DNA of 64,000 nucleotides from a virus (taxonomy: Duplodnaviria; Caudoviricetes). The notes under the pieces are model-generated. The model was given only the letters and a program-made list of their open reading frames with translations, was not told where the DNA came from and searched no databases. The position numbers were made by a program, and so were the translations under genes. The first letter of the stretch is position 1, and each line of letters opens with the position of its first letter. This document shows, in pieces, positions 1,814 to 48,718 of the stretch. Location of the stretch: IMG/VR virus record IMGVR_UViG_2767802758_000001, positions 1-64,000 of that record; one strand, 5' to 3'.

Positions 1814-2091
1814 TCTGGCCTCACGTCGATTACGTACACTTCGACAGGATCGGGGCCGAAGTGCGGGTGGATGATGGTTGCGGTGGTGTAACCACGCCAA
1901 GGCCGTATCAGGCGGCGCTCGCTGTCGTCGCGTCTTGGATAGCCAAGCGTCAGGATGATGCGGTCATAGGCGTCGTGTTCATACAGGCGCTTGCGCCAGT
2001 AGTCATTGCAGAGCCGGTATTCAAACCACTTCTCGCCAGCTTTGATCTGCTCGAAGTACTCACGCTTGAGGGGTAGGACCAAGTCACTCAT
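1810..2091 (-). CDS. ASCH-domain protein
   Basis: LPLKREYFEQIKAGEKWFEYR matches the ASCH GxKxxExR motif. Confidence 0.85.
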   Translation of the reverse strand: MSDLVLPLKREYFEQIKAGEKWFEYRLCNDYWRKRLYEHDAYDRIILTLGYPRRDDSERRLIRPWRGYTTATIIHPHFGPDPVEVYVIDVRPE

Positions 2092-2300
2092 GGCTTTGCT
2101 TCCCATCCGTTCTCACCCCAGACCACGCACTTGATATCAAGCTCATGGCACAGGGATGCATATCCGTTATTGAAATGACCGTGAGTGCGCGTGAGGCGGA
2201 GCAGCTGCCGGGGCACTGGGTCATGCTTGAGGGTAAAAAATTGCCCCGGCTGAATATGCTTCAAGCGGGGCAGGGGTTTGGGTGACTCATAGCGATTCAT
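2088..2300 (-). CDS. Phage hypothetical protein (70 aa)
   Basis: ATGA-coupled to both neighbours. Confidence 0.6.
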   Translation of the reverse strand: MNRYESPKPLPRLKHIQPGQFFTLKHDPVPRQLLRLTRTHGHFNNGYASLCHELDIKCVVWGENGWEAKP

Positions 2301-3271
2301 GCGAATAACTCCATCTGCGCTGCAAGCGCTTCATACCTCTCTGTTGCGTCCGCTATGCGTTGGGCTTGCAACGGCTCATATTCGGAGTTGAGTTCGCAGC
2401 CGAGGTATTGCCGCTCGTTGAGGATGCAGACCTCGGCAACGGTGCCGCTGCCCATAAAGGGATCAATCACTGTTCCCCCAGGTGGTGCTCCGGCCAAGAT
2501 GCAGGGCTCAATCAGATCTGGAGGGAAGGTAGCAAAATGGGCCCCCTTGTACGGGCGGGTGGCCACAGTCCAAACGCTTCGTTTGTTGCGAGTGTCTATG
2601 TCCCATTCAGATTCATCACGATCCTGCCGGTGGGTTCCGACTGTTTGTCCGGGAATAGCTACGTCTCGCTTGCTTCCTTCCCGCTTGAATGAGTCGCGTG
2701 CGCTGCGCTGGCGCTCAGCCCATTTGTGTAGGCCCGTTTGTGTGCGATGTTCTATAGCGCCTTCTGCATATGCTCGTGCTCCCTTTGTTGGCCGTTTATT
2801 TCCGGCCAATCCACCGATTGCAGGTTCTTTTATGGCAGTGTGATCGTAGAAGTAACGCTCTTTTTTACTTAGTAGGAATAGGTATTCATGGGCCTTCGTG
2901 CAGCGGTCGGTAATGCTCTCTGGCATTGGGTTTGGCTTATGCCAGATGATGTCTTGACGCAGCAGCCAGCCGTCGCCCTGGAGGGCTAAAGCTACTCGCC
3001 AGGGCATCCCTAGAAGCTGCTTGCCCTTGTCGTAGCTATCTCCAAGGTTGAGCCATAGGGTGCCGTCATCGGCCAGAATGTCACGGACGCATCGGAAAAC
3101 CTCGACGAGCGCGGCGATGTATTCTTCTGGCGTTTGCTCCAGGCCGATTTGGTCTTTGTGACCGTAATCCCGCAGACCGAAGTAGGGTGGGCTTGTGACG
3201 CAGGTCTGTGCGTGGATGCCATCTGCGGCCCATCGCCGCATAGTCTCGCGGCAATCTCCAAACTCAATCAT
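2297..3271 (-). CDS. Orphan N4-C/N6-A DNA methyltransferase (beta class)
   Basis: Catalytic TSPPY motif precedes the SAM-binding DPFMGSGT motif; RBS GGAG upstream. Confidence 0.92.
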   Translation of the reverse strand: MIEFGDCRETMRRWAADGIHAQTCVTSPPYFGLRDYGHKDQIGLEQTPEEYIAALVEVFRCVRDILADDGTLWLNLGDSYDKGKQLLGMPWRVALALQGDGWLLRQDIIWHKPNPMPESITDRCTKAHEYLFLLSKKERYFYDHTAIKEPAIGGLAGNKRPTKGARAYAEGAIEHRTQTGLHKWAERQRSARDSFKREGSKRDVAIPGQTVGTHRQDRDESEWDIDTRNKRSVWTVATRPYKGAHFATFPPDLIEPCILAGAPPGGTVIDPFMGSGTVAEVCILNERQYLGCELNSEYEPLQAQRIADATERYEALAAQMELFA

Positions 3272-3290
3272 TGAGACTCCTTGGTGTTAG

Positions 3291-3327
3291 AAAAGAAAAA
3301 CCCCGGTTGAGTAAATCAAGCGGGGTT
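3291..3327 (-). terminator. Intrinsic terminator downstream of the NTase-hydrolase cassette
   Basis: CCCCG...CGGGG stem followed by a T-tract on the minus strand. Confidence 0.6.
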
Positions 3328-3493
3328 ATGGGGTGTTGCTGCAGGTGTGGTCCGTTATGGGGGGAATCCTATGTTTTAGCTCCAGAGGTTCGGCTATGAT
3401 CCTTGCGGGTATAGGAGGGGGAAATTGGTTATGGTTGGACTCGCAACCGCCTCTTTCGGCCAGGAGAGGTCAGTGGGACTGCTCGAAGCAGAC

Positions 3494-3562
3494 GCTCAAC
3501 GTTCGAGCGAAGCTGCCCGCGTAGGCGGGCGCTGTAGCAGGTCAGCTTGAGAGGGGTTAGGA
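3494..3562 (-). other. Integron attC-like recombination site
   Basis: Minus strand reads TCCTAAC-CCCT-CTCAAGC...GCTTCGC-TCGAAC-GTTGAGC, i.e. R''/L''/L'/R' boxes with a GTTRRRY core; begins 1 bp after the stop of 3564..4757. Confidence 0.7.
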
Positions 3563-3563
3563 G

Positions 3564-4757
3564 TCAAGCTTCTGGCTTGCTGGGCGGCGCATATCGCTCC
3601 ATTGCGTATCTTATAAACTCATCGTGGCTCGCGTAGCGGTTGCTATTTAGATAGGGCATCCATTGGCTGGTGACTATGTCTCTCTCAATTACATTATTGT
3701 GGTCGAAGATCTTGTTCCTTGGCTGGAGGAGTATGTCTGCCGACTTTGTGAACCCCTTCGTACCTGCTGATCCGAAGAGTGGGTCAAGGCCGGTCCACTT
3801 TGACGGGGTGTCCGGCATCCATTTCACCCACTGATCATTGGGTGCAATCTCGTTCCTTACTCGTGCGACCTTTATCCCCGCGCACTTACCCCAGTCGTAG
3901 TTTTCATGCAGGATGCTGCCAGTTAGGATCACAGTATTGAACGTCACGGGTGGCGGCTCCTCGAATCCGTCAAGATAAGCTCCGACTAGGTATGTTCCGA
4001 AAGAGTGGGCGATGACGGAAATTTGGCCAGCTCCTTGATACTGCTGACTTGTAGCGAATAGCCATTGCCTGAACTCGTCGACAGCCGCCTTTCTCTTGCT
4101 CGCATTAAACAAGATGTCGGGATTCTGAAATCCGTAGTTGTACGGCGCGACAACCCATCCTTGACTACTTGCGATCGGGACTATGTGGCCGTTCCAAGCT
4201 GCATGAGACCTAAGTCCATGCACGGTAACAAGGAGGCCTGCAGGCTGATTGAGGTCGATTAGTTGGCGATTGAAGTAGGCGCGTTTGACGACTTCATAAG
4301 TGTCTTCGTCTGGTGCATGTTGAATCTTCCACGGTTCGCCTGCGTGTAGGATATTCACCTGAACGATGCCTGGGGTCTCTCCAAAACGTCCATGAGCCAG
4401 CAAGTGAAGGAAGGCATCTAGAATTTTTGGCTCATCCTCGGAGCAAAACATGATGTCTGTTCTCTTCCCGGCTAGGACCAGTCGCTCACTCTTTGTGGGT
4501 ATATGGTCTCGAGACCGGAAGGCAATGACAATATCGATGTCGTCAGGTTCATCCTTGCTTGTGACGAACGATCCGCCCACAAATACGTACCGAGCGTTGC
4601 GCGACGCAGCGAAGTCAAGGACGTCAATGAACGCCTTGCGAAGGTGTCGCCTGATCTCGGACGATTGACAGAAGCGCTCGATGAAATCTTTTCCAGAGCA
4701 GTTGTGGATGCCGACGGGCAAGAGCCCCTGTTGAGTAAACGTTGGAATCTGTTGCAT
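3564..4757 (-). CDS. DUF6932-like (pol-beta/MNT-type) nucleotidyltransferase fused to an alpha/beta hydrolase
   Basis: N-terminal GLLPVGIH...GGSFVTSKDEPDDID (GS + DxD); C-terminal HG oxyanion motif, AHSFG nucleophile elbow, candidate ND and DH triad residues; likely start MQQIP at 4757. Confidence 0.8.
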   Translation of the reverse strand: MQQIPTFTQQGLLPVGIHNCSGKDFIERFCQSSEIRRHLRKAFIDVLDFAASRNARYVFVGGSFVTSKDEPDDIDIVIAFRSRDHIPTKSERLVLAGKRTDIMFCSEDEPKILDAFLHLLAHGRFGETPGIVQVNILHAGEPWKIQHAPDEDTYEVVKRAYFNRQLIDLNQPAGLLVTVHGLRSHAAWNGHIVPIASSQGWVVAPYNYGFQNPDILFNASKRKAAVDEFRQWLFATSQQYQGAGQISVIAHSFGTYLVGAYLDGFEEPPPVTFNTVILTGSILHENYDWGKCAGIKVARVRNEIAPNDQWVKWMPDTPSKWTGLDPLFGSAGTKGFTKSADILLQPRNKIFDHNNVIERDIVTSQWMPYLNSNRYASHDEFIRYAMERYAPPSKPEA

Positions 4758-4798
4758 AGAGTTTCGAGAGTGGAGCACTTGAGCGCGTACGTCATGAC

Positions 4799-4805
4799 GC
4801 CTAAC
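4799..4805 (-). other. Integron-cassette-type core site GTTAGGC at the 5' end of the cassette
   Basis: GTTAGGC 41 bp upstream of the ATG; 6/7 complementary to the R'' (TCCTAAC) of the downstream attC. Confidence 0.6.
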
Positions 4806-5102
4806 GTGATGTATCCCGCAAAACCTGCGGGATATTCTGGACACTGATTTATTCTGGAAGTGGCTTGCAGCTTAGGTTTGCAGTCAGTGAGCTGTTCAAT
4901 AGAACAGGTATAAAATTTCCGCTAAACCCGGCAAGCCTATACCCAGCAAACGATATCTTACCAGTAGGCCGGCACCGGACGTTTAGACAGCAAGCCAGCG
5001 GGTAGTGAATGAAGGGCAGCTTTGGGGTAGTTTTGTCCAACGGCTGCTTTGGGTCGCTTTCTGCCCGATAGATCTGGCAACTTCTGTCAGATCAAGTCTG
5101 AG

Positions 5103-6014
5103 TCAATACATATTAGCTTGCTCACGCTCACCACCTAGCGCCACCACTAGATCGCTGATCATCTTGGCCAGCTCGGAGGTCATCAAGGTCATGTCAGCAT
5201 CAAAGATTTCGTCATCGTTGACGGCCGTCACATCTTGTTTTTCAGTCAAGATATCCAGCGGGGCCACACGTTTGACGTCCAGCGCGTCGGTCAGCACAAA
5301 GCTGATGCTATCCGCCCAGGTCATGGCCAAACGGGTGCATTGCTTACCGGCTTCAACGTGCTTGCGCACTTCGTCAATGTCGGCGCTTTGCTTCACGTAG
5401 CGTACGGCTGCACCACTATCGCCGGTGGAACGCAGCTCGGTATCCTGGTCGACAGTGAAGTTCGCCAGTTGCTCTTCGTCCACCAGCCAGGAGGTCATGG
5501 CCGCACCGGGTGATTGCTCCGTATACAGGGGCTGCACGGGGAAGGGCTCTACGCTCTTAGCGAATAGGCCGAGCACCTCATCACTCTTAGCCACGGCAGC
5601 GGTATCAATGACAAACCAATGGTTTCGTGTGTCGATCCACACCATGGTGTCGCGCTGCACAGCATGGGAGCGGGGCATCAAATCAATGATGATCTGCTCT
5701 TTGATTTCCTTCATCTGCTTGCGGCCCGGCTTGTAGCCCTGTTGCTCTTCGATTTCGCGGGCCTTCTCGCGGGCGGCTTGGTTAACCAAAGCGCTGGGCA
5801 GCAGTTTCTTTTCAGCGCGTACGCAGATTAGATACTGCCCATTCACTTCATGCACCAGATCACCTCCTTCGCGCGGCGCTACCCAGCCCAGGCTGAGCGG
5901 TTCTTGGCTTCCGCATGGTGCGAATTGATGTTCGGCCAACATTTCGACCAGTGCTTGGGCTGAGACCTCAAATTGACGGTCCAGGCGGAAGATACGCAGG
6001 TTTTTAAACCACAT
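5103..6014 (-). CDS. rdgC: Recombination-associated protein RdgC
   Basis: MWFKNLRIFRL N-terminus, EKKLLP motif, 303 aa. Confidence 0.95.
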   Translation of the reverse strand: MWFKNLRIFRLDRQFEVSAQALVEMLAEHQFAPCGSQEPLSLGWVAPREGGDLVHEVNGQYLICVRAEKKLLPSALVNQAAREKAREIEEQQGYKPGRKQMKEIKEQIIIDLMPRSHAVQRDTMVWIDTRNHWFVIDTAAVAKSDEVLGLFAKSVEPFPVQPLYTEQSPGAAMTSWLVDEEQLANFTVDQDTELRSTGDSGAAVRYVKQSADIDEVRKHVEAGKQCTRLAMTWADSISFVLTDALDVKRVAPLDILTEKQDVTAVNDDEIFDADMTLMTSELAKMISDLVVALGGEREQANMY

Positions 6015-6087
6015 GGGTGTATTCCTTTCAGGATGGGCTATGCTGCTTCCACATATTTACTTACAGAGCTTGTGAGAGGAAGCGGGG

Positions 6088-6738
6088 ATGTTTAAAGAGG
6101 TTGCTTTTGAGAGGACGCTGATTGCCGCTTTTCTAGTTGGCGGGGGCGTGGGCATTGGATTTGGCTGGTTTCTGTTCCCCTTTTTATTTCCTTTGCTTGA
6201 CGCATCTGGAACTGCTGTATGGGTACAAGCCATAGCGTCAGTCGCGGCAATATATTGGGCTGGAAGGCAGGGGCGTGCTCTTTTCCAACATCAGAAGAAA
6301 GAGCGGGAAAAAGCTGCTGTGCAACTAGCGGTAGATGTTGTCCGCACTTTACATGGCCATTTAGATAAGTTGGGTAGTTCTAGATGGTGGCCGGGGGATA
6401 GGCTTAAAGCCGTGGCAACGGGGAAAAACTATTTCAAAATCGACTATTTGGACCCGGTGGAAAGGATGCTCGATCAGGTCAATCTTGAGCATCTCAGCGG
6501 TACGCGCTCGGTCGTAATTATGGTGGAGGTGCGGTCAAAAATATGGCGCATTAAAGAGTATTTGACCTGGATTATTGAGAATGTAGATGATGTTCAGCTA
6601 CGGGAGGAAAGAGGAGAAAAAATATTTGATGCCCAGGCGCGCCGCATCAAGAAGGAAGTAGCAGACATATTTACGTGTCTCAGCGAGCTAACAGTTCATA
6701 GAGAAAAATATGAGCCAGTCCCTACTATTGACTCATAG
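6088..6738 (+). CDS. Accessory membrane-anchored hypothetical protein (moron)
   Basis: 216 aa, two N-terminal hydrophobic segments, lower GC, opposite strand to the operon. Confidence 0.7.
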   Translation: MFKEVAFERTLIAAFLVGGGVGIGFGWFLFPFLFPLLDASGTAVWVQAIASVAAIYWAGRQGRALFQHQKKEREKAAVQLAVDVVRTLHGHLDKLGSSRWWPGDRLKAVATGKNYFKIDYLDPVERMLDQVNLEHLSGTRSVVIMVEVRSKIWRIKEYLTWIIENVDDVQLREERGEKIFDAQARRIKKEVADIFTCLSELTVHREKYEPVPTIDS

Positions 6739-47734: not shown

Positions 47735-48718
47735 TCAATCCAGTTTTGCTGCGATGTCTGTTGGTGATTGGCGATAGTAGATCATCAGGCTGCGCGGGTC
47801 GCGGTGGCCGACCATGCGAGCCAACTCTAAAATGTCGAGCTTCTTTGAAAGTCTAGTAATAGCGGTAGCCCTTGCGTCATGGAAGGTCGGGCCAGAAATG
47901 CCGGCCAAATCACGCCCGGAACGATAATAGACATCAAGTAGGGCTGATGTCAGATCAAACACTTTTTCGTCGTGCACACCCTCCATTGCTTTGAGCAATT
48001 CGATTGCTCGACGCGATAAAGGCACATACCGATCGTCACTGTTTTTGGTGCTGGCCAGATAGGCGGTGCGCTTCTCATAGCTGATGCAGTTCCAGGTCAA
48101 GCTGATAATCTCACCTGCGCGCATTGCTGTTTCGAGCGATAGCAAAAGTGCCACTGCAGCTTGCTGCCGTCGACTGGCTGGTCTGCCACCGGAATACCCG
48201 AGCGCATCGACAATTCGTTCTACTTCTCCTTCCTCGAAAATCACCGTGCGCGGTTTGCTTGCTGCTGGCTTGGTCACCTCTGGCCAAGGGTCATGATCAA
48301 CATAGCCCCATTCGCCCTTTTTTGCTTGCTTCCAAATGGCACGCAGCGATCCGATCTCACGCAGAACTGAGGCTGGTTTCACTGACTCTAGACGCCGGTC
48401 CCGCCAGGCAGCAAGGTCCGGTGCGCCGATGTCTTGCATAATGAGCTTTGCAATGTCGTCGCGTTGAATGGCTTTCAGCCTGAGTATTTCCTTGTCTCCA
48501 CTGGCCTTGGTGGGGCTCACTTGAGTGATGTATCTTTCCAACACATCGTGCAATGTCCAGCGGATAACCTTGCCGGCTCGCATGGCTGTAATTTCGGCCT
48601 CACGCTTGGATGCCCATTCTTGGGCTTCTCTTTTGGTGGGGAAGGTCGCGCTTTCTCTGAGCCCTTTTTTAACGATCTCAGCGCGCCACCCGTTGCCGCT
48701 CTTTCTAAACGAAGCCAT
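47735..48718 (-). CDS. int: Tyrosine integrase
   Basis: Catalytic R (TAMRAGE), K (TKN), HxxR (FHDAR), H (GHRD), Y (LMIYY). Confidence 0.96.
   Translation of the reverse strand: MASFRKSGNGWRAEIVKKGLRESATFPTKREAQEWASKREAEITAMRAGKVIRWTLHDVLERYITQVSPTKASGDKEILRLKAIQRDDIAKLIMQDIGAPDLAAWRDRRLESVKPASVLREIGSLRAIWKQAKKGEWGYVDHDPWPEVTKPAASKPRTVIFEEGEVERIVDALGYSGGRPASRRQQAAVALLLSLETAMRAGEIISLTWNCISYEKRTAYLASTKNSDDRYVPLSRRAIELLKAMEGVHDEKVFDLTSALLDVYYRSGRDLAGISGPTFHDARATAITRLSKKLDILELARMVGHRDPRSLMIYYRQSPTDIAAKLD

What the first reader, a model, noticed from the sequence alone, without database searches (positions are those of the whole stretch)
3494..4805. The NTase-hydrolase gene looks like an integron cassette captured by a prophage that has no integron integrase
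Seen in the sequence: GTTAGGC sits 41 bp before the ATG, and a 69-bp attC-like palindrome (TCCTAAC...CTCAAGC...GCTTCGC-TCGAAC-GTTGAGC) starts 1 bp after the stop. R'' matches the 5' core at 6/7 positions, as expected for a cassette that was once circular. The only tyrosine recombinase in the prophage is its own Int. Established: cassettes are promoterless ORF+attC units, integron arrays carry anti-phage genes, and IntI can insert cassettes at non-canonical sites. Inference: integron-to-phage gene flow delivered a defence gene into the early-left operon.
Basis: partly seen in the sequence, partly recalled or inferred. Interest (0 to 1): 0.75.

Follow-up and report, generated by a model that had tools for sequence, protein, structure and literature searches.

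The report
Integron cassette stranded in a prophage
An accessory gene of an Alcaligenes-type prophage, a nucleotidyltransferase fused to a lipase-like hydrolase and possibly an anti-phage gene, still carries the recombination site of an integron gene cassette, so this phage took a gene from the integron cassette pool although it has no integron integrase.

Summary
The gene (minus strand, 4757-3564) is followed after 1 nt by a 69-nt element (3562-3494). That element is the only match in the whole 64-kb window to covariance models I built from real attC sites. The model from 20 integrase-anchored sites gives 14.7 bits, E 0.26. The model from 106 sites gives 21.4 bits, E 0.0024. In 2.06 Mb of control DNA the only scores of 17 bits or more lie just downstream of rdgC in three other prophages, two of them close sisters.

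Homologues of the gene are bona fide cassettes. One lies in Oceanisphaera sediminis, whose genome has IntI, and about ten lie on metagenome contigs. One homologue (L267, 62% identity) shares the 15 nt around the 5' core and the sequence across and 11 nt beyond the attC end. The window therefore holds a fragment of a cassette array, not a cleanly inserted single cassette.

The 72-kb provirus has no integron integrase. Sister prophages L004 and L005 carry different attC cassettes in the same slot, joined to the phage exactly at the canonical G|TT crossover.

This is a SALIN-type isolated cassette in a prophage: a new member of a known kind. The defence role of the protein is inferred, not shown.

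The parts
5103..6014 (-). rdgC, the last conserved gene of the prophage recombination module (ERF, YqaJ exonuclease, SSB, RdgC) before the variable slot
   Evidence: Pfam RdgC E 1e-110. 86-95% identical proteins are named from Alcaligenes genomes. The gene is conserved in 23 sister proviruses.
5027..5102 (-). Flank after rdgC shared only with sister prophages L004, L005 and L015. Homology to all three stops at the same nucleotide (after 5027).
   Evidence: Sequence comparison.
4806..5026 (-). 221-nt segment found in no sister prophage, lying upstream of the 5' core. It holds a CTGT-N8-ACAG palindrome (4892-4907) and a 9-bp hairpin (4811-4836) that abuts the core. It is probably the relic of the preceding array element or a leader.
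   Evidence: No blastn match in sister loci. No attC-model hit. No significant similarity to the L267 leader or to 20 intI-attI platforms.
4799..4813 (-). 5' cassette boundary: core GTTAGGC (4805-4799) plus the 8 nt upstream. The 15-mer is identical in the metagenome homologue L267 at the same distance from its ATG.
   Evidence: The core is complementary to R'' at 6 of 7 positions (inverted repeat I21).
3564..4757 (-). Cassette ORF of 397 aa: an N-terminal DUF6932 (Pol-beta-type nucleotidyltransferase motif G61-G62-S63, D73, D75, D101) fused to a C-terminal minimal alpha/beta hydrolase (A250-H251-S252-F253-G254, D308, H353).
   Evidence: Pfam PF22014 71.2 bits against a cut-off of 27. These residues are invariant in 26 homologues. 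AlphaFold model pLDDT 81.7. Residues 171-373 match lipase 6nkc at Z 15.6. 246 homologues.
3494..3562 (-). attC site of 69 nt. R'' is at 3562-3556. The L-box pairs 3548-3543 with 3515-3510. There is a bulged A on the top strand (T on the bottom strand) at 3542. R' is at 3500-3494.
   Evidence: R2 21.4 bits, E 0.0024, full model, the only hit in the window. R1 14.7 bits. Constrained bottom-strand fold. Both ends resemble attC sites of arrays L076 and L082 and of L267.
3476..3493 (-). 18 nt beyond the R' crossover. Its first 11 nt match what follows the attC in L267, so it is a relic of the next array element. It forms a small hairpin.
   Evidence: Homology with sister prophages resumes at 3474.
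3330..3474 (.). Conserved non-coding element shared by at least 12 sister prophages. In most of them it precedes cargo genes on the opposite strand, so it is a candidate promoter/leader or small RNA.
   Evidence: No Rfam match.
3290..3327 (-). Intrinsic-terminator-like hairpin with a T run. In the empty-site prophages L016 and L022 it follows rdgC within 24 nt.
   Evidence: (inverted repeat I13).
2297..3271 (-). N6/N4 DNA methyltransferase in a second variable slot. It has no attC of its own here.
   Evidence: Pfam E 8e-48. It is absent from sister prophages. No attC hit in 2000-6200 with filters off. Homologues lie between attC sites in L076 and L082.

Best explanation
The gene at 4757-3564 together with the 69-nt element at 3562-3494 is an integron gene cassette (one ORF plus its attC site). 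It originated in a cassette array and now sits as an isolated cassette (a SALIN) in the accessory slot after rdgC of an Alcaligenes-type lambdoid prophage that has no integron integrase.

Shown:
- The attC is recognised by models trained only on real arrays.
- The gene family recurs as cassettes in real arrays.
- The sequence at both cassette ends matches an array copy (L267).
- The slot is empty or differently filled in sister prophages.
- Two sisters (L004, L005) carry other attC cassettes there, joined to the phage flank exactly at the G|TT crossover.

Inferred:
- The window's block (about 5026-3475) was cut out of an array together with relics of both neighbouring elements. It was joined to the phage by recombination that did not use the cassette's own crossover points. 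The slot itself had been visited by integron integrase supplied in trans.
- The gene runs in the same direction as the early-left operon, so it would be read from PL and perhaps from a promoter in the 221-nt leader.
- The product is predicted to be catalytically competent in both halves (nucleotidyltransferase and Ser-Asp-His lipase-like hydrolase). I take it as a single-chain anti-phage or abortive-infection candidate. This last step is the weakest, at about 0.35.
For: Covariance models:
- R1 (20 sites next to IntI genes in 12 genomes) finds only this element in the window: 14.7 bits, E 0.26. It also recovers 106 sites in the correct orientation in arrays.
- The modelled structure is supported by covariation: 90.9% of cells paired against 73% in shuffles, and 296 double changes.
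- R2 gives 21.4 bits, E 0.0024 for 64 kb and E 0.00016 for 4.2 kb with filters off. The next hit scores 4.4 bits.
- In 2.06 Mb of controls the only hits of 17 bits or more lie downstream of rdgC in L004 (34.5), L062 (31.8) and L005 (17.7).

Homologues as cassettes:
- L157 in Oceanisphaera sediminis has attC sites on both sides of the homologue, and that genome has IntI at 422 bits against a cut-off of 265.
- Metagenome loci L267, L274, L275, L288, L294 and L301 have an attC within 13 nt before to 14 nt after the stop on the same strand.
- L267 shares the 15-mer at the 5' core and 27 nt across and beyond R'.

Context:
- Empty site in L016 and L022; varied cargo elsewhere.
- L004 and L005 become homologous exactly at the TT of R'.
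- No IntI in the window or provirus.

Protein. Defence-type context:
- On Klebsiella plasmids the homologue sits beside a UvrD-helicase/ATPase pair and a DUF262 gene.
- The L005 cassette is PADLOC candidate PDC-S21.
Against: - The attC scores below most real sites (28-61 bits with R1). R1 alone is borderline, and the model E-values are rough.
- Four of the 16 modelled pairs are non-standard, and one of the two usual extrahelical bases cannot be placed.
- The canonical L-box register costs about 6 kcal/mol relative to the free fold.
- IntegronFinder's own model could not be run.
- Only about 10 of 64 homologue loci show attC sites. The closest homologue with flanks (L266, 74% identity) shows none.
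- The 221-nt upstream segment has no recognisable origin.
- No excision joint is seen in metagenome contigs.
- No experiment links this protein family to defence, and the PADLOC match covers only 73 residues.
Confidence: 0.8

Rival explanations
1. Clean IntI-mediated insertion: a single circular cassette was inserted by an integron integrase acting in trans at a secondary (attG-type) site of the prophage. The DNA outside 4805 and 3500 would then be phage target DNA.
For: Integrase-catalysed insertion outside att sites and isolated cassettes (SALINs) are documented (bioRxiv 10.1101/2022.09.11.507474). Sister prophages L004 and L005 show junctions exactly at the G|TT crossover in this slot. The 5' core and R'' are complementary at 6 of 7 positions, as expected for a once-circular cassette.
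Against: The 8 nt before the 5' core and the 11 nt after R' are the same as in the array copy L267, so they travelled with the cassette. 221 nt upstream and 18 nt downstream are absent from every sister prophage.
Confidence: 0.12
2. Chance resemblance: the 69-nt element is just the gene's own terminator or hairpin cluster, and the two 7-mers are coincidental.
For: The unconstrained fold gives separate small hairpins with z only -2.3. Motif pairs are common. The simple motif-plus-fold filter fires about 8 times per Mb of strand. IntegronFinder's authors discard single attC hits as possible false positives (PMC4889954).
Against: It is the only model hit in 64 kb, on the right strand, 1 nt after the stop. 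Controls give no unrelated hit above 15.3 bits in 2.06 Mb. There is end-to-end sequence similarity to attC sites of real arrays and to the L267 cassette. There is no T run for a terminator.
Confidence: 0.04
3. Reverse direction: the phage copy is ancestral, and cassettes of this family were generated from a phage-borne gene.
For: How cassettes are created is unknown (PMC4889954). The family is also found outside integrons, on plasmids and chromosomes.
Against: The window copy already carries relics of the array neighbours on both sides. The gene is absent from all 23 sister prophages and from 50,697 phage records. Its G+C is about 51-52%, against 55-60% for the flanking prophage DNA.
Confidence: 0.04

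Closest known systems
[quoted passage not shown]
   Same: One ORF followed by one attC, with no intI and no second attC nearby. It is expressed from foreign promoters. It is thought to come from the integron cassette pool.
   Different: It lies inside a prophage early operon. Its edges carry relics of array neighbours rather than an attG target with the 5'-GWT-3' junction. Its attC scores low.
Integron components in phage genomes (3 complete integrons and 17 CALINs); Qi et al. 2023, PMC9892861
   Same: attC-bearing cassettes carried by temperate phages. DNA methyltransferases are frequent in such arrays, as in L076 and L082 here.
   Different: Those cases have two or more attC sites or an intI gene. 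Here there is a single cassette per prophage, but different cassettes in the same slot of sister prophages. The host genus (Alcaligenes) and this cargo family are not among the cases I read there.
Anti-phage cassettes of sedentary and mobile integrons (bioRxiv 10.1101/2024.07.02.601686 and 10.1101/2024.07.02.601719)
   Same: Compact single-gene candidate defence functions carried as cassettes. Homologues of such systems are also found in prophages.
   Different: The DUF6932-hydrolase fusion is not mentioned in either paper nor anywhere in the library. Its defence activity is untested.
Lambdoid prophage morons and accessory hot spots
   Same: A variable slot at a fixed place in the early-left operon, bounded by conserved sequence and a terminator. 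Sister phages carry unrelated cargo, including a flavohaemoglobin in L014.
   Different: Here at least three fillings carry attC sites, which points to the integron cassette pool as a donor.

Membership tests
Integron gene cassette / attC site | Inverse core RYYYAAC and core GTTRRRY 50-150 nt apart, with AAC and GTT conserved | tested here: met
   R' fits exactly. R'' has T instead of a purine at position 1. AAC and GTT are present, and the span is 69 nt. In 106 real sites the outermost R-box pair is unpaired in 29.
Integron gene cassette / attC site | Significant score against a covariance model of attC sites (R box, spacer, L box) | tested here: met
   Own models: R1 14.7 bits, E 0.26; R2 21.4 bits, E 0.0024. 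It is the only hit in the window, and empirical controls are clean. IntegronFinder's own model was not available.
Integron gene cassette / attC site | Bottom strand folds into one imperfect hairpin with an unpaired central spacer and extrahelical bases | tested here: inconclusive
   An R-box-closed hairpin at -13.2 kcal/mol against a free fold of -14.2. The canonical L-box register gives -8.4. A bulged T at 3542 on the bottom strand is present. The second extrahelical base cannot be placed.
Integron gene cassette / attC site | attC directly 3' of a single ORF on the same strand, with a core site shortly upstream of the ORF | tested here: met
   The gap after the stop is 1 nt, against -13 to +14 nt in the array homologues. 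The core is 41 nt before the ATG, against 38 nt in L267 and 19 nt in L157.
Integron gene cassette / attC site | Homologous genes present as cassettes in arrays | tested here: met
   L157, in a genome with IntI. L267, L274, L275, L288, L294, L301, L281/L282 and L284/L285.
Integron gene cassette / attC site | Recombined by an integron integrase | not testable with these tools
   This needs an attC x attI conjugation or excision assay.
Complete integron or CALIN | intI gene nearby (integron), or two or more attC sites within 4 kb (CALIN) | tested here: not met
   No TIGR02249 match in the provirus. No IntI by tblastn. A single attC in 64 kb.
attG-type IntI insertion (Loot et al.) | Cassette ends joined to target DNA exactly at the crossover | tested here: not met
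   The DNA outside both crossovers matches the array copy L267, not the phage.
DUF6932 / Pol-beta-type nucleotidyltransferase | Pfam PF22014 above the gathering score; G-S and D-x-D motifs | tested here: met
   71.2 bits against a cut-off of 27. G61, G62, S63, D73, D75 and D101 are invariant. The fold of this domain was not searched on its own.
Alpha/beta hydrolase, lipase-like | Alpha/beta-hydrolase fold with a nucleophile elbow and a Ser-Asp-His triad | tested here: met
   Z 15.6, rmsd 2.7 over 166 residues to 6nkc. Foldseek matches to LipA and cutinases. S252, D308 and H353 are invariant. Pfam Hydrolase_4 is below its cut-off (23.1 against 27).
PADLOC candidate PDC-M63 | Match to PDC-M63A and presence of the system's partner gene or genes | tested here: inconclusive
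   E 1.5e-8 over residues 11-83 only. No conserved partner gene was seen in the contexts read.

The most novel reading that the evidence does not exclude
The slot after rdgC in this Alcaligenes prophage lineage works as an integrase-less docking site for integron cassettes. An integron integrase supplied in trans by the host or a plasmid swaps cassettes there. L004 and L005 carry different attC cassettes joined at the same G|TT crossover, and the window carries a third cassette. Temperate phages would thus sample the integron pool of compact defence genes and carry them between cells.
Probability: 0.3. Interest if true: 0.8.

Novelty: new member of a known kind. Interest (0 to 1): 0.6.

Why it matters
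Integron arrays have recently been recognised as large stores of compact anti-phage genes, and prophage accessory slots are another such store. This locus is sequence-level evidence that the two pools exchange genes. A prophage gene still wears its attC site and relics of its array neighbours. Sister prophages hold other attC cassettes at the same crossover point, one of them the PADLOC defence candidate PDC-S21.

It also flags the widespread but unstudied DUF6932 + lipase-like hydrolase fusion as a recurrent cassette. The fusion has 246 homologues across Proteobacteria, Firmicutes and Bacteroidota, and no paper in the library mentions DUF6932. It is worth testing for phage defence.

Practically, it shows that single weak attC sites, which standard pipelines discard, can be validated by comparison with homologues and sister elements.

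Tried and rejected
- Nucleotide and protein searches of 50,697 phage records with the region or the protein gave no match.
The contexts of the Vibrio homologues and of the closest ones (77-64% identity) could not be read.
- The unconstrained fold first suggested 'not an attC'. I dropped that reading after constrained folds and positive controls.
- The strict motif heuristic missed most real sites (17 in 20 arrays) and was replaced by covariance models.
- Rfam gave nothing relevant. The promoter and terminator scans gave nothing in 3200-6200.
- I looked for an integron platform relic in 4806-5026. There is no similarity to 20 intI-attI regions and no IntI fragment (best E 0.47).
- The 221-nt segment against the L267 leader scored at the shuffle level.
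- A scan of viral contigs for the slot's flank found only L004, L005 and L015 again.
- The L062 hit (31.8 bits) has a non-canonical R' and lies between ORFs of the other strand, so I do not count it as a cassette.
- The PDB sequence search with the family profile found nothing. NCBIfam found nothing.
- The fold of the N-terminal domain was not tested on its own.
- Sequencing runs: no RNA holder is listed. Contigs of four runs show the same arrangement and other slot variants but no excision joint. Contigs cannot show rare events.
- The 216-aa plus-strand ORF at 6088-6738 is not related to the 216-aa cargo of L015 or L007.
- The literature search on Alcaligenes integrons was not informative.

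Full report
**Anatomy**

The finding concerns a minus-strand gene with ATG at 4757 and stop at 3566-3564 (397 aa).
- The 7-mer GTTAGGC lies at 4805-4799, 41 nt before the ATG.
- TCCTAAC lies at 3562-3556, 1 nt after the stop.
- GTTGAGC lies at 3500-3494.

The neighbours, all on the minus strand, are ERF, a YqaJ exonuclease, SSB, RdgC (5103-6014), the gene in question, and an N6/N4 methyltransferase (2297-3271). The window is an IMG/VR provirus of 72.4 kb. RdgC proteins 86-95% identical are named from Alcaligenes genomes, so the host is very probably an Alcaligenes.

**First impression, later revised**

The free fold of the 69 nt gives several small hairpins. The bare motif pair occurs ten times in the window. 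Sister prophages show that the foreign block is wider than the proposed cassette. At that point the attC idea looked weak.

**What changed the reading**

1. A homologue in Oceanisphaera sediminis (L157, 54% identity) sits between textbook attC sites. One ends in the same 7-mer core 19 nt before its ATG. The other starts on its stop codon. That genome has an integron integrase at 422 bits against a cut-off of 265.

2. I collected real attC sites from DNA next to IntI genes in other genomes. They share with the window element the order R box, spacer, L box with a bulged A in a GAC triplet, loop, L', spacer, R'.

3. With only AAC/GTT forced to pair, the window's bottom strand folds into one hairpin at -13.2 kcal/mol, against -14.2 for the free fold.

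**Covariance-model test**

- Model R1 was built from 20 sites of 12 integrase-anchored arrays plus L157. MAFFT aligned both ends well and I supplied the structure.
- R1 finds exactly one hit with E <= 10 in the 64-kb window: 3562-3494 on the minus strand, full length, 14.7 bits, E 0.26.
- R1 recovers held-out arrays at 23-42 bits. It finds 106 sites in 23 array-bearing loci searched, each on the expected strand.
- The structure is supported by covariation: 90.9% of cells paired against 73% in shuffles.
- Model R2, built from those 106 sites, scores the window element at 21.4 bits, E 0.0024. It is again the only hit. With filters off over 2000-6200 the next best hit is 4.4 bits, and the opposite strand scores 3 bits.
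- In 2.06 Mb of control loci the only hits of 17 bits or more are L004 (34.5), L062 (31.8) and L005 (17.7). All three lie just downstream of rdgC in other prophages, two of which (L004, L005) are close sisters. Unrelated noise tops out at 15.3 bits.
- The model E-values are rough because of the shortened calibration. The empirical control is the stronger argument.

**Homologues**

The family is large and widely spread: 246 proteins in Proteobacteria, Firmicutes, Bacteroidota and Chlorobi.
- Of 42 metagenome loci with full or near-full copies, R2 finds an attC on the same strand directly after the gene in L267, L274, L275, L288, L294 and L301. It finds one directly before the gene in L281/L282 and L284/L285.
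- Most genome, plasmid and viral copies have none.
- On Klebsiella plasmids the gene sits beside a UvrD-helicase/ATPase pair, a DUF262 gene and IS elements. This is a defence-island-like setting.

**The L267 comparison**

L267 is 62% identical in protein. It shares with the window the 15-mer TACATCACGTTAGGC, which ends 38 nt before its ATG (41 nt in the window). It also shares 27 nt running from the last spacer through R' and 11 nt beyond, with 3 mismatches.

In L267 the DNA after each attC begins a repeated ORF-less element. So the window retains the last bases of the element upstream of the cassette and the first bases of the element downstream. The prophage therefore holds a piece of an array, not a cassette inserted cleanly at its own crossover points.

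**The slot**

- In L016 and L022 rdgC is followed within 24 nt by the terminator hairpin that lies at 3327-3290 in the window. This is the empty site.
- Other sisters carry 0.2-2 kb of unrelated cargo, mostly on the opposite strand. One carries a flavohaemoglobin.
- The window shares the 76-nt flank after rdgC with L004, L005 and L015 only. All four diverge at the same nucleotide.
- In L004 a 224-aa ORF ends inside the R'' of a 60-nt aadA-like attC, and a core complementary to it at 6 of 7 positions lies about 20 nt before the ORF.
- In L005 a DUF4917 protein, PADLOC candidate PDC-S21 at E 2e-102, is followed by a 116-nt attC.
- The two attC sites are unrelated, yet homology between L004 and L005 starts exactly at the TT of R'. 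This is the canonical integrase crossover (established knowledge of attC recombination).
- This is the signature of integrase-mediated exchange in this slot. The cassettes there point the opposite way from the window's.

**Integrase**

The window and the whole provirus lack an integron integrase. A generic phage-type tyrosine recombinase lies at 47735-48718.

**Protein**

- Residues 5-135 match DUF6932. G61-G62-S63, D73, D75 and D101 are invariant, which is the Pol-beta nucleotidyltransferase signature.
- Residues 171-373 are a minimal lipase-like alpha/beta hydrolase, with Z 15.6 to 6nkc. The AHSFG elbow, D308 and H353 are invariant.
- PADLOC gives only a short match to candidate PDC-M63A.
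- A defence or abortive-infection role is inferred from context alone.

**Comparison with what is known**

- Isolated cassettes (SALINs) and integrase-driven insertion outside att sites are described (bioRxiv 10.1101/2022.09.11.507474).
- Integrons and CALINs in phage genomes are described (PMC9892861).
- Integron cassettes as defence stores are described (bioRxiv 10.1101/2024.07.02.601686).
- IntegronFinder's authors discard single attC hits (PMC4889954). That explains why such a site would be missed.

This locus is a new member of that kind. Two points go beyond it. First, the cargo family is unstudied. Second, sister prophages hold different cassettes at one crossover.

**Verdict**

The defence function is open.

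Noticed in passing
L082:1-9957 and L076:1-2100 (IMG/VR contigs found through the methylase of window 2297-3271): Both hold attC arrays: at least 17 sites in 10 kb of L082 and 4 in L076, all on one strand. The methylase homologues (57-61% identity) lie between attC sites on the opposite strand, as reverse-oriented cassettes. So both adjacent window genes have relatives in cassette arrays.
   Followed up: partly
window 4892-4907: A perfect CTGT-N8-ACAG palindrome (the LexA-box pattern) lies 87 nt upstream of the cassette's 5' core, in the segment of unknown origin. Five of 20 intI-attI regions I read carry such a box 46-118 nt from intI. No other similarity was found.
   Followed up: partly
window 3330-3474 and 3290-3327: A conserved non-coding element of about 145 nt plus a terminator hairpin is shared by at least 12 sister prophages. 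In most of them the slot's cargo is transcribed away from it on the other strand, so it may hold a promoter/leader or encode a small RNA. It has no Rfam match.
   Followed up: partly
L004:8072-9094 (the place of the window's methylase): The second variable slot holds an MrcB_N + HNH protein (type IV restriction-like) in L004, a methyltransferase in the window and other genes elsewhere. There are therefore two adjacent hot spots for defence-type cargo.
   Followed up: partly
L014:7471-8703: One sister prophage carries a flavohaemoglobin (globin + FAD + NAD domains) in the rdgC slot. This is unusual cargo for a phage.
   Followed up: no
L267:2789-2968 and 4261-4440: A 59-nt stretch, 95% identical between the two copies, follows each attC of this metagenome array. 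It looks like a repeated ORF-less cassette flanking the DUF6932 cassette.
   Followed up: partly
L062:7500-7559: An attC-model hit of 31.8 bits lies about 600 nt after rdgC in a distant prophage. It has GAT in place of GTT in R' and lies between ORFs of the other strand. It may be a relic site or a look-alike terminator.
   Followed up: partly
window 5012-5026 and 5039-5053: A 15-nt direct repeat (13 of 15 identical) brackets the point where homology to L004, L005 and L015 ends. It may be a trace of the recombination that joined the block to the phage.
   Followed up: no
window 3432-3551, plus strand: A 39-codon ORF with a strong AGGAGG site starts in the conserved element and runs antisense through the attC. 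Its ATG is not conserved in L004, L005 or L015, so it is probably not a gene.
   Followed up: partly
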